Shown piece by piece: positions 36,992-47,014 of a DNA stretch of 64,000 nt (positions are counted from its first letter, which is position 1; each line of letters starts with the position of its first letter). A program made the position numbers and the translations under genes. The DNA is from Escherichia phage vB_EcoM_IME537. Below the pieces are notes generated by a model. It did not search any database and was not told the origin of the DNA. It saw only the letters and a list, made by a program, of their open reading frames with translations. The stretch lies in the sequence record NC_054921.1. The stretch is one strand, 5' to 3'.

Positions 36992-37465
36992 TTATTTGAA
37001 CGATTTAACGTACTGAATAGAACCTTTACTATTCACGAAAGCGATTTTACCATTTTTATTATACATGGTAGCAGTACGCTGATAACCATAAGTTTGTTTA
37101 CCAGATTGATAACCAACTAATGCGAAATTATCTTCACCCATTTTATTCTGTTTAGCGCGAATACGTTCATGTCCATGCGCCATAAGAACCTTAGCATCAC
37201 CAGTTGCAATGGATCGACGAGTTTTTTCATCTTCAACTGTATTAACAAAATCATCAAATGAATCAAATTTAGCATGAGATTTATTATACAGTTTTCCATC
37301 TACTGCATAATTATATCCCTGTACATCCATCTCAACTTCTGTACCATCATCTAATACAGCAGTAATTTTCTGTCCTTTTTTAAATTTCAAAAGATCAGTA
37401 AAAGATTCAGCAATAATTTGAGAATTAATAGCTGCTTCAGTAATAAATTCTTGATATGTTTTCAT
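36992..37465 (-). CDS. internal-protein-like gene with N-terminal capsid targeting sequence (ipII/ipIII locus)
   Basis: 157 aa; N-terminus MKTYQEFITEA matches the T4 internal-protein targeting sequence. Confidence 0.65.
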   Translation of the reverse strand: MKTYQEFITEAAINSQIIAESFTDLLKFKKGQKITAVLDDGTEVEMDVQGYNYAVDGKLYNKSHAKFDSFDDFVNTVEDEKTRRSIATGDAKVLMAHGHERIRAKQNKMGEDNFALVGYQSGKQTYGYQRTATMYNKNGKIAFVNSKGSIQYVKSFK

Positions 37466-40993: not shown

Positions 40994-41524
40994 TTATATC
41001 CCATTATTTGAGAGATGTAAACTATTTTTAATTTTACAAATTCGTTCAGCTTCATCGATAGCAGCATTAATAATGCTTTTAGCTATAGGAGTACTAATAC
41101 TAGTAGCTTTTACACTTAACACGATTTCTTTATCTTTACCAGGCCAACCCCACGATTTTTCACCGTGAGTGCCTTTAATTACAGCAGACACCTCAAGTGA
41201 GCATCCATTATCACATGTTTTTACATTAACAACCCAAGGGTCACTTTTCTCAATCGGTTTCTCAATCGGTTTATCCCAGTAAATATTAAGAATACGTGGA
41301 ACATCAAATTTGGCAGGACAAATCTTAACCGTAAGACCTTCGCTTTCTAGCCAATTAATAAGAGGGCGTTCATACAGGCGACGATGTGGGCTTGGGATTC
41401 GACAAGCCTTATGTCCGTTGCTTGCGGCTTCACTAAGCTGTTCTAATACCTGCTTTTGCATTATTGATAAAATACCATCAAAAGATCTTTCGGAAGTTTC
41501 ATTCAGTTCGGTATAAAGAGACAT
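40994..41524 (-). CDS. hypothetical protein
   Basis: 176-aa ORF, ATG start. Confidence 0.5.
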   Translation of the reverse strand: MSLYTELNETSERSFDGILSIMQKQVLEQLSEAASNGHKACRIPSPHRRLYERPLINWLESEGLTVKICPAKFDVPRILNIYWDKPIEKPIEKSDPWVVNVKTCDNGCSLEVSAVIKGTHGEKSWGWPGKDKEIVLSVKATSISTPIAKSIINAAIDEAERICKIKNSLHLSNNGI

Positions 41525-41579: not shown

Positions 41580-41843
41580 TTATTTCATATTATTGAAATA
41601 TTCTTCTGCGATTTCGTCGTTATCATGGTAAACTTTAGAAGACAGTTTAACATAACCTTCAGCAGTGAACATGTTAATCACAACCTTTACAGTATACCAC
41701 TGACCGTCTTCATTACCCATTACTGCATAAGTTTCAAACATCGGATGGTCAGGACCGATAACTTTAATATCATTCACTGTACGACCGAAATCTTCTGAAA
41801 CACATTTCATAAAGAAGTTGAACAGTTCGCCGTAATTATCCAT
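41580..41843 (-). CDS. hypothetical protein
   Basis: 87 aa from ATG 41843 with SD GGAGA; the track's longer ORF would begin upstream of the promoter. Confidence 0.4.
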   Translation of the reverse strand: MDNYGELFNFFMKCVSEDFGRTVNDIKVIGPDHPMFETYAVMGNEDGQWYTVKVVINMFTAEGYVKLSSKVYHDNDEIAEEYFNNMK

Positions 41844-41886
41844 TTCATTCTCCAAGTTGTTTTCTGTATCAGTAGTTGATAGTTGT

Positions 41887-41916
41887 ATAGTACCATGGAA
41901 GAACAGAGATGTAAAC
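41887..41916 (-). promoter_or_regulatory. sigma70-type early promoter (-35 GTTTACA, -10 TACTAT)
   Basis: GTTTACATCTCTGTTCTTCCATGGTACTAT. Confidence 0.5.
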
Positions 41917-42053
41917 AGTTTTGTGAAAAAAAAAAATTTTAAAAAGTTTTGGGGAATTCTAGGGCAGGGAGGGGCAATTAAAAGATAGGATAATATATTA
42001 TAAAGGGTATAAACTAAATGATGCCTAGAGAGGTCCAAAAAGGCCTAGATACC

Positions 42054-42081
42054 AAAAAGCCCCAACCTTTCGGCTGGGGCT
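42054..42081 (-). terminator. rho-independent terminator, copy A of a direct repeat
   Basis: transcript AGCCCCAGCCGAAAGGUUGGGGCU then UUUUU; 8 nt downstream of the 42089 stop. Confidence 0.6.
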
Positions 42082-42088
42082 AAGAATG

Positions 42089-42562
42089 TTATTTAATTTG
42101 TTTAGCAGACCAAATGCGGTCTTTGATAATTTTTTGGATGTCTTCAACATACTCAAGAGAGTGAGCATGCGGGTTATCTTTGAAACTATAAGCACGAGCT
42201 AACTTTTGGCCTTCAGTTTTGATTACTAAAAGCTCTTTAAGGATAGCTTCATATTTAGAAATAATTCCTTTAACAATATTTTTTTCTTGTGCAGCTTTAG
42301 GATCTGCTTTAGGAGCAGGTTTACCCGAAGCCTTTGCAAAAGCAGCGCCAGTAGCAACTAAACTTTTCCAGGCCATACTAACTGCATTTCCCGTAAATCC
42401 TTCTGCTTTCATGTCGCGAGCAAACTGGAATCGTGATTCGTCAGAAGCATCTTTATAGGAATATTTACCCGCTGCAATGGCTGCTTTTGCGACAGCTTGA
42501 ATTTCGGTGCTAGATGCTTCATTTAACACCGCTTCATTTAAAAATTGAGCATATGATTTCAT
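42089..42562 (-). CDS. internal-protein-like gene with capsid targeting sequence, lying between two terminator repeats
   Basis: 157 aa; N-terminus MKSYAQFLNEA; late promoter upstream. Confidence 0.6.
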   Translation of the reverse strand: MKSYAQFLNEAVLNEASSTEIQAVAKAAIAAGKYSYKDASDESRFQFARDMKAEGFTGNAVSMAWKSLVATGAAFAKASGKPAPKADPKAAQEKNIVKGIISKYEAILKELLVIKTEGQKLARAYSFKDNPHAHSLEYVEDIQKIIKDRIWSAKQIK

Positions 42563-42599
42563 CTTATTTCCTGTTCTAATTCGTGGATTTAATATATTA

Positions 42600-42607
42600 T
42601 ATTTATA
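42600..42607 (-). promoter_or_regulatory. late promoter TATAAATA
   Basis: TATAAATA on the minus strand about 38 nt upstream of the 42562 start. Confidence 0.5.
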
Positions 42608-42609
42608 CT

Positions 42610-42637
42610 AAAAAGCCCCAACCTTTCGGTCGGGGCT
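42610..42637 (-). terminator. rho-independent terminator, copy B of the direct repeat (end of tRNA/stable-RNA transcript)
   Basis: transcript AGCCCCGACCGAAAGGUUGGGGCU then UUUUU. Confidence 0.6.
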
Positions 42638-42640
42638 AAG

Positions 42641-42944
42641 CCTTGCGGCAACCTTGTAGGGGTTCCACCTGCTAAGGCAAGTGTTTGTACGAAACGCCGG
42701 GATTCGAACCCGGTTATTAAGTAGTTGACGCTACTCAATATTTTTAAAAGGCCATATCTCGACCATATCCGAACGTTCCGTCAAAAACGCTACTCGGCTT
42801 ACGGCAAAGATATTTCCTCGAATCGATAATTCGGTGCGCCGTTTCTGCTGTGATAGTAAAGAGCCAGAACACAGTAAAACTGTGGGAGGAAACTATACTC
42901 CAGGGAACATCAGTCCGACGACTTACCGGTAGCGACCCGGTTTC
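42641..42944 (-). ncRNA. putative stable small RNA region (T4 RNA C / RNA D equivalents)
   Basis: no convincing ORF; tRNA-like T-arm GGGTTCGAATCCC; T4 synteny downstream of tRNA-Arg; boundaries not resolved. Confidence 0.35.
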
Positions 42945-43295
42945 TTAATATTCTTTTAAAGAATCAATATATTCACGGCGTTTACGCCACAAATCAATTG
43001 CTTCATACGCGGATTCAGCATTTCGAATTAGCCGGCATTTATGTAAAGACTTATGATTTTGATATTGTGTAGATAACGGAATTGTATCTAAAAGGTCTTT
43101 ACGATCAAAATATTCGTAACCATCTAAACCAAATGAACGATTTTTGAGAAATTGCCAATGACCATATTCGTTTTCGACATAAACATAATCTGCATGCTGA
43201 TAAAGCAAATTAATTACACGTTCAGAAATAACAGTATCATTATGATTAAAATAGAATGTTAAATCATGAACTACTAAATAAACATTACCTTTCAT
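42945..43295 (-). CDS. hypothetical protein
   Basis: 116-aa ORF, ATG start. Confidence 0.45.
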   Translation of the reverse strand: MKGNVYLVVHDLTFYFNHNDTVISERVINLLYQHADYVYVENEYGHWQFLKNRSFGLDGYEYFDRKDLLDTIPLSTQYQNHKSLHKCRLIRNAESAYEAIDLWRKRREYIDSLKEY

Positions 43296-45057: not shown

Positions 45058-45441
45058 TCAGCCTTCATCAACAATAGTGTGAGTATGGGCATTTACGATT
45101 TGCCACCAGTCAAAACTATCGCCAAATCGTTTTGATTTATTGTCTTCAATAATTTGGCGTAATTCATCTTCTGTTTCAGCATACGCAATCAAATCATCAT
45201 ATCCACCACGAGGATAATAATTATCACCTGCAAAAAGTAAAAAGTTTGGTTTAATGTTATTGAACTCTTCAAGAGTAATAACTTTTCCTGACGGTTGAAC
45301 AATCTCTACATATTTATATCCCAATTTTTGAGCAGCATCTACTGCTTCAAGCAGGGTATCATGAGCCCATCCAATTTGGCAATCTGGCTTTTCAGATGGA
45401 TTAGCCTGATAATCCGCGTACACTTTATACATTCTATTCAC
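45058..45441 (-). CDS. hypothetical protein
   Basis: 127-aa ORF. Confidence 0.5.
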   Translation of the reverse strand: MNRMYKVYADYQANPSEKPDCQIGWAHDTLLEAVDAAQKLGYKYVEIVQPSGKVITLEEFNNIKPNFLLFAGDNYYPRGGYDDLIAYAETEDELRQIIEDNKSKRFGDSFDWWQIVNAHTHTIVDEG

Positions 45442-45619: not shown

Positions 45620-45647
45620 TTTATTCTCCTCAGTAGTTGATAGGGTA

Positions 45648-45677
45648 ATAGTATCACTACCCTATCTAAAAGTAAAC
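45648..45677 (-). promoter_or_regulatory. sigma70-type early promoter within an inverted repeat
   Basis: GTTTACT-N17-TACTAT; flanking GATAGGGTA / TACCCTATC. Confidence 0.5.
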
Positions 45678-45911
45678 TTATTTTTTACGAAAAATTGATT
45701 TATTTTCTGCTGCCCATTTTTCAATAACTGCAGCAGGACCAGTAACAACAATTTTATCACCGTAATCTTCTGCGGCGAGTTGACCGAAATTATCTAATGC
45801 ATCACGAAGAACTCCATGAGGCATTTCACCCATTTTATCTTTCTTACCAGTGTAAATAAACTCAACTTTTACATCAGCCGCTTCATTGATAAATTCTTTG
45901 AAAGTTTTCAT
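45678..45911 (-). CDS. internal-protein-like gene (ipI locus) with capsid targeting sequence
   Basis: 77 aa from ATG 45911; N-terminus MKTFKEFINEA. Confidence 0.5.
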   Translation of the reverse strand: MKTFKEFINEAADVKVEFIYTGKKDKMGEMPHGVLRDALDNFGQLAAEDYGDKIVVTGPAAVIEKWAAENKSIFRKK

Positions 45912-45945
45912 TTTGATTTCCATTTGGTTTTGTTTTGATAGGGTA

Positions 45946-45975
45946 ATAGTATCACAACTAAAACTCCATGTAAAC
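45946..45975 (-). promoter_or_regulatory. sigma70-type early promoter within an inverted repeat
   Basis: GTTTACA-N17-TACTAT; core GATAGGGTAATAGTATCAC also found at 26171 and 45640. Confidence 0.5.
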
Positions 45976-45987
45976 AACTTTATGAAA

Positions 45988-46245
45988 TTATTTCAAATCT
46001 TCTAATCGTTTCTTCATCTTAGAACCATTTTTAGCAATTTCTCCTGCATCGGAGCATAATGCTAAAAGTGCTTTAACTTTAGTTTGGTCTCCTTTAAAAG
46101 ATGAAGGATCGACTGCAGCAGCAAGTTCTTTAATACGAGAGAAAAGACGCTCAGCTTCAGCTAAAGCCATTCCAAGCTTTACTTCCATACCGTGAGAAGA
46201 TTCAGTGATAGTAGTTTTTGTAGCAAACTCTTTGAAAGTTTTCAT
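45988..46245 (-). CDS. internal-protein-like gene (ipI locus) with a degenerate targeting sequence
   Basis: 85 aa; N-terminus MKTFKEFATKT lacks the xEA cleavage context. Confidence 0.5.
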   Translation of the reverse strand: MKTFKEFATKTTITESSHGMEVKLGMALAEAERLFSRIKELAAAVDPSSFKGDQTKVKALLALCSDAGEIAKNGSKMKKRLEDLK

Positions 46246-46275
46246 TTTATTTTCCTAATTAATTTTGATGAGGTA

Positions 46276-46305
46276 ATAATATCACTACCTCATCAGTATG
46301 TAAAC
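46276..46305 (-). promoter_or_regulatory. sigma70-type early promoter within an inverted repeat
   Basis: GTTTACA-N17-TATTAT; flanking TGATGAGGTA / TACCTCATCA. Confidence 0.5.
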
Positions 46306-46317
46306 AACTTTGTGAAA

Positions 46318-47014
<697 letters not shown>

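What the first reader, a model, noticed from the sequence alone, without database searches (positions are those of the whole stretch)
42054..42637. Internal-protein-like gene cassette bracketed by a 31-nt direct repeat of a terminator hairpin
The 157-aa ORF 42089..42562 starts with MKSYAQFLNEA, which resembles the capsid targeting sequence of T4 internal proteins. It sits between two near-identical terminator hairpins (42054..42081 and 42610..42637, two mismatches over about 31 nt) and has its own late promoter TATAAATA at 42600..42607. The flanking direct repeats look like the footprint of a cassette inserted by recombination between terminator sequences. If packaged and injected with the DNA, the protein could be a new anti-restriction factor analogous to IPI, which blocks GmrSD.
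Basis: partly seen in the sequence, partly recalled or inferred. Interest (0 to 1): 0.7.

Follow-up and report, generated by a model that had tools for sequence, protein, structure and literature searches.

The report
Unannotated candidate T4-type internal protein cassette
A widespread but unnamed gene of T4-like phages, missing from T2, T4 and T6, has the sequence features of a head-packaged, injected "internal protein" and sits between two copies of one terminator; the gene type and its flanking repeat are known, so it is a useful candidate, not a new kind of system.

Summary
A 157-aa ORF (42089..42562, minus strand) lies between two copies of a 36-nt repeat (42049-42084 and 42605-42640, 33/36 identical). 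Each copy is a strong minus-strand terminator hairpin. A TATAAATA late-promoter motif sits 37 nt upstream of the ATG.

The window is a Tequatrovirus. The ORF is not at either classical IP locus. It lies between the tRNA-operon RNA rnaC and gene e.8, a site that is empty in T4, T2, T6 and PST and there holds a single terminator.

The first 10 residues (MKSYAQFLNE) keep all four positions shown by experiment to matter in the T4 capsid targeting sequence. That leader is conserved in distant homologues. A second, unrelated ORF (187 aa, MKTYAEFLTE...) occupies the same site in other phages and resembles ORF157 only in those 10 residues. That is the hallmark of internal proteins.

The gene is syntenic in Mosigvirus and Jiaodavirus. 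The terminator repeats are therefore more likely substrates for repeated loss and exchange than the scar of one insertion.

All databases checked call the protein hypothetical. The RB32 GenBank record already notes the flanking repeat. Packaging and anti-restriction function remain untested. Verdict: new member of a known kind, moderate interest.

The parts
42605..42640 (-). Proximal copy of the 36-nt direct repeat. It is the terminator that ends the tRNA/rnaC transcription unit (hairpin 42614-42637, T-run 42609-42613).
   Evidence: Same sequence and position as the single terminator downstream of rnaC in T4.
42600..42607 (-). T4 late-promoter consensus TATAAATA. It overlaps the last 3 nt of the proximal repeat copy and lies 37 nt upstream of the ATG.
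   Evidence: Conserved in G4507, G29 and RB32 and in Klebsiella phage KpV477. Independently annotated as a promoter in phage Lutter. The motif alone is not enriched in the window.
42567..42572 (-). Shine-Dalgarno-like AGGAAA, 4 nt upstream of the ATG.
   Evidence: read directly from the sequence
42089..42562 (-). ORF157: a 157-aa, lysine-rich basic protein (pI 9.5), orthologue of RB32ORF133c and member of phrog_2280. Candidate internal (head-packaged) protein.
   Evidence: Purifying selection: 17-20 synonymous against 3 non-synonymous codon differences to three relatives.
42518..42562 (-). Codons 1-15: CTS-like leader MKSYAQFLNE|AVLNE|A, with two L-x-E motifs as predicted gp21 prohead-protease cleavage sites.
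   Evidence: Criteria for the CTS taken from PMC9026906.
42049..42084 (-). Distal copy of the 36-nt repeat. It is the terminator of the ORF157 transcript (hairpin 42058-42081, T-run 42053-42057).
42688..42826 (-). Context: rnaC (species 1 RNA) homologue, the last gene of the tRNA operon upstream of the cassette. Coordinates are approximate.
   Evidence: By eye alignment with the annotated T4 sequence. Rfam has no family for it.
41580..41846 (-). Context: e.8 homologue, the first gene downstream of the cassette. The conserved spacer 41847-42048 carries its early promoter.

Best explanation
ORF157 is a real, conserved late gene of T4-like phages. It most likely encodes an additional internal protein (IP).

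Proposed mechanism:
1. Late in infection the gene is transcribed from its own TATAAATA promoter as a monocistronic RNA of about 540 nt. The tRNA-operon terminator lies just upstream of this promoter and a near-identical copy of it ends the RNA.
2. The 10-residue leader MKSYAQFLNE targets the protein to the scaffolding core of the prohead.
3. The gp21 prohead protease cuts after Glu10 and/or Glu15.
4. A basic, Lys-rich protein of about 15.5-16 kDa stays in the head with the DNA and is injected into the next host.
5. There it probably neutralises a defence that acts on incoming DNA. This last step rests on analogy with Ip1-3, which inhibit GmrSD-type restriction enzymes.

The site between rnaC and e.8 is a third polymorphic IP-type locus with four allelic states: empty, ORF157, ORF187, or both. 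All junctions lie in the terminator (core GGGGCTTTTT). Homologous or microhomology recombination between terminator copies removes or exchanges the genes. The gene itself is probably ancestral at this position.

Shown here: the sequence features, their conservation, purifying selection, and the allelic states.
Inferred: transcription timing, packaging, cleavage, injection and target.
For: Leader:
- ORF157 keeps Tyr4 and Phe7 (targeting) and Leu8 and Glu10 (processing, L/I-x-E). These are the four positions mapped by mutagenesis of the IPIII CTS (PMC9026906; T4 IP sequences).
- Among 1127 candidate starts in the window, ORF157 ranks 4th, directly after the orthologues of Ip4, Ip6 and Ip5. This holds with a PSSM built from seven annotated IPs and with BLOSUM62 scoring (33 against 20 for the next candidate; mean -4, sd 7.4).
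- The regex MK[STA][YF]..F finds only these four ORF starts in all six frames.
- The leader is conserved in homologues down to 42-53% identity: MKSYAEFLTE, MLKFNEFLAE, MLEYSEFLKE, MKFKEFLAE.

Hallmark of IPs:
- A second ORF at the same site in other phages (187 aa, MKTYAEFLTEA...) resembles ORF157 only in residues 1-10/11, by BLASTP and by hhalign.
- Silas et al. state that Ip1-3 share only the leader (PMC12373910).

Protein and expression:
- The protein is basic and Lys-rich (pI 9.5, 20 K against 4 R) and under purifying selection.
- The TATAAATA motif is conserved directly after the terminator in four Tequatrovirus sequences and in a Klebsiella Jiaodavirus.

Allelic states:
- Empty: T4, PST, T2, T6, RB10.
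- ORF157 only: the window, RB32, G4507, Lutter.
- ORF187 only: T4_ev151, HY03, ESh36.
- Both: G29.

Synteny: Mosigvirus OLB35 and Jiaodavirus KpV477 carry the gene at the same position.
Against: - There is no direct evidence that the protein is in virions. No proteomic data were found.
- The leader differs from every annotated IP leader at positions 3, 5, 6 and 8 (S, A, Q, L). With a strict PSSM it scores only 3.6, against 25-31 for annotated IPs.
- TATAAATA is no more frequent in the window than chance predicts. Mosigvirus has only a 7/8 match.
- The locus is outside the two IP loci described in the literature.
- The mature part has no detectable similarity to any protein of known function or structure.
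- Silas et al. tested ip4-10 against a GmrSD panel and found no new inhibitors. A CTS therefore does not predict GmrSD inhibition.
Confidence: 0.6

Rival explanations
1. The protein is packaged through its CTS, but its role is physical or structural rather than anti-defence. It would neutralise DNA charge or assist condensation and ejection of DNA inside the head.
For: - The protein is Lys-rich and basic (pI 9.5), with a predicted disordered linker KASGKPAPKADPKAAQEK.
- Solid-state NMR of T4 showed that lysines of the internal proteins contact DNA phosphates (PMC3012670).
- The mature protein has no similarity to any known inhibitor.
Against: - The gene is dispensable in nature. It is absent from T2, T4, T6 and PST.
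- All three T4 IPs with known function are specific inhibitors of host nucleases.
- Presence/absence polymorphism is typical of arms-race genes.
Confidence: 0.2
2. The protein is a late cytoplasmic protein that is not packaged. The IP-like leader would be a relic of recombination with ip genes, or a chance resemblance.
For: - The leader is only 6/11 identical to the IPII/IPIII leader and scores modestly with a strict PSSM.
- The gene lies outside the known IP loci.
- Every database calls it hypothetical.
Against: - The leader, including the L-x-E site, is conserved across genera while the rest of the protein diverges or is swapped.
- An unrelated neighbouring ORF carries the same leader.
- The experimentally critical positions 4, 7, 8 and 10 are all kept.
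- The score gap to all other ORF starts is clear.
Confidence: 0.15
3. One reading: the cassette was inserted recently into an originally empty T4-like site. The route would be recombination between terminator sequences, for example through a mini-circle intermediate of the PeSL type. The duplicated terminator would be the scar of that insertion.
For: - The empty site in T4 carries exactly one copy. Its 5' part matches the proximal copy and its 3' flank matches the distal copy.
- In RB49/phi1, ORFs flanked by repeated terminator-promoter elements form circles (PMC2839356).
Against: - The same hybrid copy is expected from a deletion between the repeats.
- The gene with the same terminator-TTTTTAGTATAAATA leader sits at the same position in Mosigvirus and Jiaodavirus. 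In Jiaodavirus the downstream terminator is unrelated.
- About 70% of sampled Tequatrovirus genomes carry ORF157.
- The simplest history is an old gene with repeated losses, plus re-gain by ordinary homologous recombination in mixed infections.
Confidence: 0.25

Closest known systems
T4-type internal proteins: IPI, IPII and IPIII of T4, and Ip4-Ip12 of other T-even phages (Repoila et al. 1994; Mullaney & Black 1996; Silas et al. 2025)
   Same: - About 10-residue N-terminal leader MK(T/S)(Y/F)x(E/Q)F(I/L)xE followed by Ala/Ser.
- L/I-x-E protease site.
- Small, mostly basic proteins that are unrelated to each other beyond the leader.
- Non-essential, with presence/absence polymorphism among close relatives.
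- Flanked by repeated regulatory sequences.
   Different: - Lies at the rnaC-e.8 site, not at the ipI locus (trna.4-57B) or the ipII/ipIII locus (denV-e).
- The only promoter-like motif is a late one placed directly after a strong terminator. Ip5 and Ip6 in this window sit behind early-type promoters.
- The flanking repeat is a G+C-rich terminator, not an AT-rich promoter/stem-loop element.
- Not named as an Ip in any record or paper I could read.
- Packaging is untested.
PeSL cassettes (promoter-early stem-loop) of RB49/phi1 and other T4-like phages (Arbiol et al. 2010, PMC2839356; Comeau et al. 2014, PMC4122927)
   Same: - A G+C-rich terminator hairpin is immediately followed by a promoter.
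- The element is repeated on both sides of small non-essential ORFs.
- Indel boundaries between close relatives fall in the repeats.
   Different: - The promoter motif is the T4 late consensus TATAAATA, not a sigma-70-like early promoter.
- The sequence is unrelated to PeSLs.
- Only this one locus carries the repeat in the 64-kb window.
- Mini-circles were not tested.
RB32ORF133c and RB14ncORF136c (GenBank annotations of RB32 and RB14)
   Same: RB32ORF133c is the orthologue of ORF157, and its note reads 'flanked by 34 bp imperfect direct repeat'. RB14ncORF136c is the 187-aa neighbour family.
   Different: Both are annotated only as hypothetical proteins. The IP-type leader is not mentioned there.
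IPI* (processed IPI), inhibitor of GmrSD
   Same: Only the leader logic and the proposed mode of delivery.
   Different: There is no sequence or fold similarity. IPI* is a compact alpha/beta protein of 76 residues. ORF157 is predicted to be all-helical, with two domains joined by a disordered linker.

Membership tests
T4-type internal protein (CTS-bearing, head-packaged) | N-terminal capsid targeting sequence of about 10 residues, with aromatic residues at positions 4 and 7 (targeting determinants in IPIII) | tested here: met
   MKSYAQFLNE has Tyr4 and Phe7. It ranks 4th of 1127 ORF starts, after three annotated IP orthologues. The leader is conserved in distant homologues.
T4-type internal protein (CTS-bearing, head-packaged) | gp21 prohead-protease site L/I-x-E at the end of the leader (positions 8-10), followed by a small residue | tested here: met
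   Leu8-Asn9-Glu10|Ala11, and a second Leu13-Asn14-Glu15|Ala16. The motif definition comes from PMC9026906. Actual cleavage was not tested.
T4-type internal protein (CTS-bearing, head-packaged) | Mature parts of different IPs are unrelated; only the leader is shared | tested here: met
   ORF157 against ORF187: similarity is confined to residues 1-10/11. ORF157 against Ip4: none. No hit to IP PHROGs.
T4-type internal protein (CTS-bearing, head-packaged) | Synthesis at the time of prohead assembly (late transcription) | tested here: inconclusive
   TATAAATA lies 37 nt upstream of the ATG and directly after a terminator, and it is conserved in relatives. The motif is not enriched in the window, and there are no transcript data.
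T4-type internal protein (CTS-bearing, head-packaged) | Physical presence of the processed protein in virions and injection with the DNA | not testable with these tools
   No virion proteome containing this protein was found. A search of the supplements of PMC13119998 for peptides of the Klebsiella homologue gave nothing.
T4-type internal protein (CTS-bearing, head-packaged) | Location in one of the two described IP loci. This is a descriptive feature, not a strictly defining one. | tested here: not met
   The gene lies between rnaC and e.8. The ipI-locus genes of this window are at 45678-46245 and the ipII/III-locus gene (Ip4) is at 36992-37465.
PeSL mobile regulatory cassette | Stem-loop terminator immediately followed by a strong sigma-70-like early promoter | tested here: not met
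   The terminator is present, but the adjoining motif is the late consensus TATAAATA. No sigma-70-like site was found at 42560-42610.
PeSL mobile regulatory cassette | Repeated copies flank non-essential ORFs, and indel boundaries between close relatives fall within the copies | tested here: met
   There are four allelic states with junctions in the terminator.
PeSL mobile regulatory cassette | Formation of excised mini-circles | not testable with these tools
   This needs inverse PCR on infected cells or virions.
IPI*-like GmrSD inhibitor | Sequence or fold similarity to IPI*, or to another known anti-restriction protein | tested here: not met
   No match in Pfam, NCBIfam or PDB sequences. 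Foldseek against PDB and BFVD gave only self-family hits. The AF2 model has mean pLDDT 75.
IPI*-like GmrSD inhibitor | Inhibition of a type IV (GmrSD-family) restriction enzyme | not testable with these tools
   This needs plating or biochemical assays.

The most novel reading that the evidence does not exclude
The rnaC-e.8 intergenic site is a third, so far undescribed internal-protein locus of T-even phages. It would encode two new families of injected proteins (ORF157/RB32ORF133c and ORF187/RB14ncORF136c). These escaped notice because T2, T4 and T6 all lack them. They would disarm host defences not covered by Ip1-3. Their gain and loss would run through a terminator-plus-late-promoter module that is the late-gene counterpart of PeSLs.
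Probability: 0.35. Interest if true: 0.6.

Novelty: new member of a known kind. Interest (0 to 1): 0.42.

Why it matters
All three T4 internal proteins are now known to be injected inhibitors of distinct GmrSD-type restriction enzymes. Further IPs are therefore prime candidates for new anti-defence functions.

ORF157 is present in roughly 70% of sequenced Tequatrovirus genomes, and ORF187 in about 30%. Many of these phages are candidates for phage therapy. Both proteins are annotated only as hypothetical, and both are absent from the model phages T2, T4 and T6.

Recognising them as candidate IPs has three uses:
- It gives two directly testable proteins for host-range and anti-defence studies.
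- It would improve the annotation of hundreds of genomes.
- It adds a third example of regulatory-repeat-mediated gene shuffling in T-even phages.

Tried and rejected
Function of the mature protein:
- Pfam, NCBIfam and PDB sequence searches gave nothing significant.
- PHROGs gives only phrog_2280, 'unknown function'.
- The AF2 model (pLDDT 75) searched with Foldseek against PDB and BFVD returned only members of its own family and generic helical hairpins.
- The exhaustive HMMER search of 1.8 billion representatives found only T4-like phage homologues. Two further hits to repeat proteins share an 'AAGSYSYK' word and were rejected as spurious.

Idea that ORF157 and ORF187 are paralogues (both hit phrog_2280):
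- Rejected. BLASTP and hhalign find similarity only in residues 1-10.

Virion evidence:
- The primary fHe-Yen9-01 paper is not held.
- The Klebsiella phage proteome supplements contain none of six peptides or fragments of the homologue.

Literature:
- Repoila et al. 1994 is not held.
- Comeau et al. 2007 was not looked for in the library. I therefore cannot exclude that one of the '>30 IP variants' mentioned there is this gene.

Data access:
- The IMG/VR scan with the terminator sequence gave only 34 loci and was not used further.
- Several fetched loci were not visible to Python, so junctions in those loci were read by eye.

Full report
**1. Observation**

The region was read directly and its ORFs listed. 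On the minus strand, in order of transcription, there are:
- a terminator hairpin (stem 42637-42614, GAAA loop, T5 tail);
- TATAAATA (42607-42600);
- an AGGAAA Shine-Dalgarno-like sequence;
- a 157-codon ORF (42562-42089) starting MKSYAQFLNEA;
- a second terminator hairpin (stem 42081-42058).

The two hairpins belong to a 36-nt direct repeat (42049-42084 and 42605-42640) with 33/36 identity and a spacing of 556 nt. Shuffled sequence gives 0 matches.

Both copies are called terminator-like. As RNA they fold to -22.8 and -24.9 kcal/mol, better than all 200 shuffles. The two mismatched stem bases exchange an A-U/G-U pair for G-U/A-U. Both stems therefore stay perfect on the minus-strand transcript, which fits selection for terminator function.

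TATAAATA by itself is not over-represented in the window: 13 copies against 11.2 expected. Only its position and its conservation count as evidence.

**2. Where this is**

The window is a Tequatrovirus. The 1.9 kb around the ORF is 96-97% identical to many T4-like coliphages. The ORF157 protein is 100% identical to that of Shigella phage SH7.

I compared the window with the annotated T4 and RB32 records. The minus-strand gene order there is 57B, the ipI locus, trna.4-trna.2, the tRNA genes with segB, rnaD, rnaC, then e.8, e.7 ... e, then the ipIII/ipII locus.

ORF157 lies between rnaC and e.8. It is therefore not at either classical IP locus. The window's classical IP genes are elsewhere:
- Ip6 at 45678-45911 and Ip5 at 45988-46245 (the ipI locus);
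- Ip4 at 36992-37465 (the ipII/III locus).

**3. The site is polymorphic and the junctions lie in the terminator**

T4 has a single copy of the terminator right after rnaC. It is followed directly by the conserved spacer that carries the e.8 promoter. PST is the same. T2, T6, RB10, F2 and ACG-C40 align across the site in one piece.

Other states:
- RB32, G4507 and Lutter have the window's arrangement.
- T4_ev151, HY03 and ESh36 carry a different 187-codon ORF between the rnaC terminator and a second terminator with a different stem.
- G29 has both: ORF157, then a terminator, then the 187-aa ORF (frameshifted there), then a third terminator.

In every case the sequence changes partner within or right after GGGGCTTTTT.

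I estimated frequencies from a sample of rows spread evenly down the ranking. About 18% of sites are empty, 50% have ORF157 only, 11% have ORF187 only, and 21% have both or a larger insert. This is a rough estimate. It agrees with the tblastn counts: 367 records with at least 90% identity to ORF157 and 165 records with ORF187.

**4. Is it a real gene?**

Yes. Against three relatives, 17-20 codons differ synonymously and only 3 non-synonymously.

Homologues are found in 510 phage records. They occur in Tequatrovirus, in Mosigvirus (about 74% identity), and in Jiaodavirus and Yersinia phages (N-terminal domain only). The exhaustive profile search finds nothing outside T4-like phages.

**5. Is it IP-like?**

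The review of Black's work (PMC9026906) summarises the experimental definition. The first 10 residues of IPIII suffice for packaging. Residues 4 and 7 matter for targeting, and residues 8 and 10 for processing. gp21 cuts after Glu in L/I-x-E.

- The IPII/IPIII leader is MKTYQEFIAE|A.
- ORF157 has MKSYAQFLNE|A, which keeps Tyr4, Phe7, Leu8 and Glu10. A second LNE|A follows five residues later.

A PSSM built from seven annotated IP leaders places ORF157 4th of 1127 possible ORF starts in the window, just behind Ip4, Ip6 and Ip5. The margin to the next candidate is small on this strict measure (3.6 against 1.5). With BLOSUM62 scoring the gap is clear: 33 against 20, with a background of -4 +/- 7.4.

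The leader is kept in homologues as distant as 42-53% identity.

The most telling result concerns the 187-aa ORF that shares the site. It starts MKTYAEFLTE|A and is otherwise unrelated to ORF157. BLASTP and hhalign align residues 1-10/11 only. 'Nothing in common but the leader' is exactly how the known IPs relate to one another (PMC12373910; PMC3012670).

The predicted mature protein is basic and lysine-rich (pI 9.5-9.6, 20 Lys). The AF2 model has mean pLDDT 75 and shows:
- a disordered leader;
- a four-helix domain (residues 18-75);
- a disordered Lys/Pro/Ala linker;
- a helical hairpin (residues 88-154).

**6. Function of the mature part**

It is unknown. There is no hit in Pfam, NCBIfam or PDB sequences, and no fold match.

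The anti-restriction idea rests only on analogy. Ip1, Ip2 and Ip3 each inhibit a different GmrSD-type enzyme, while ip4-10 showed no activity against the panel tested (PMC12373910).

**7. Insertion or loss?**

In Mosigvirus OLB35 the gene sits in the same place, between two related terminators.

In Klebsiella phage KpV477 it again follows the tRNA cluster. A hairpin with a different stem precedes it, but the junction ...GGGGCTTTTTAGTATAAATAT is the same. An unrelated terminator follows it.

The terminator, late promoter and gene therefore form an old unit at this position. The T4-type empty site is exactly what recombination between the two repeat copies would leave behind.

I therefore favour an ancestral gene with recurrent loss, and re-gain by ordinary recombination in mixed infections. 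I rank a recent insertion lower. The present data do not prove either direction.

**8. What is already known**

- The RB32 GenBank record (2006) says of the orthologue 'flanked by 34 bp imperfect direct repeat'.
- Phages G4507, G29 and Lutter have the terminators annotated, and Lutter also the 8-nt promoter.
- Repeated regulatory elements around IP genes, and terminator-promoter cassettes (PeSLs) that mediate modular shuffling, are established concepts (PMC2839356, PMC4122927). The window's own ipI locus shows three copies of a 71-nt promoter-region repeat around Ip6 and Ip5.

What I did not find in any record or paper available to me is the recognition of this protein as a candidate IP. The same holds for the 187-aa neighbour, and for the rnaC-e.8 site as an IP-type locus.
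- All names in NCBI and UniProt are 'hypothetical' or 'uncharacterized'.
- PHROGs says 'unknown function'.
- The papers speak of two IP loci.
- Repoila 1994 is not held and I did not look for Comeau 2007 in the library. Comeau 2007 is cited for '>30 IP variants'.

**9. Verdict**

- the locus is a third site, not one of the two known IP loci;
- the gene is probably old at this position;
- the flanking repeat was already noted;
- there is no link to IPI beyond the leader.

It is a new member of a known kind. It is worth testing as an injected anti-defence candidate, but it is not a surprise to a T4 specialist.

Noticed in passing
L041:633-1196 (-) (phage T4_ev151); also L003:1045-1607 (G29), L040, L042: A second, unrelated CTS-bearing ORF (187 aa, MKTYAEFLTEAAKLP...; RB14ncORF136c family; 165 phage records, all 'hypothetical') occupies the same rnaC-e.8 site in other Tequatroviruses. 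It occurs alone or downstream of ORF157. It is absent from this window. In G29 and OE5505 it is split by a frameshift.
   Followed up: partly
window 45635-46333: Three copies of a repeat of about 71 nt (62-80% identical) containing an early-promoter-like GTTTACAT...TATTAT region bracket the Ip6 (45678-45911) and Ip5 (45988-46245) genes. This is the classical IP-locus repeat architecture. RB32 notes a '43 bp direct repeat' around Ip7/Ip9.
   Followed up: partly
window 42945-43295 (-): A 116-aa ORF (phrog_3355, unknown function) lies between rnaD and tRNA-Arg. In T4, RB32 and PST these two RNA genes are adjacent. This is another presence/absence polymorphism inside the tRNA operon.
   Followed up: no
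window 40994-41524 (-): The e.7 position is occupied by an unrelated 176-aa ORF (phrog_6869), as in RB32 (RB32ORF130c, 'similar to RB69ORF146c, replaces e.7').
   Followed up: no
protein P0014 (94 aa, Logan contig of 2898 nt): A chimeric protein. Its N-terminal part resembles the trna.3 homologue (window 45058-45441) and its last 31 residues are those of ORF157, joined at a short (E/K)DN microhomology. This suggests a natural deletion of about 3 kb that removed rnaC, rnaD, all tRNA genes, segB and trna.2.
   Followed up: no
phrog_2280: PHROGs places ORF157-type and ORF187-type proteins in one family, with full-length, high-scoring matches for both. Direct BLASTP and hhalign find similarity only in the first 10 residues. 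The family looks like a merger of unrelated proteins, perhaps bridged by the Klebsiella/Yersinia variants with a different C-terminal half.
   Followed up: partly
L044:2497-3027 (Klebsiella phage KpV477): The ORF157 homologue there is interrupted by an in-frame TAA and is only partly covered by the record's two short CDS annotations (2341-2505 and 2495-2731). This is either a pseudogene or a sequencing error. Other Klebsiella phages (P0011, 177 aa) have it intact.
   Followed up: no
window 42518-42547 (-), codons 6-15: Tequatrovirus ORF157 has a 5-residue tandem duplication in the leader (LNEAV-LNEAS), giving two L-x-E sites. The Mosigvirus orthologues have only one.
   Followed up: no
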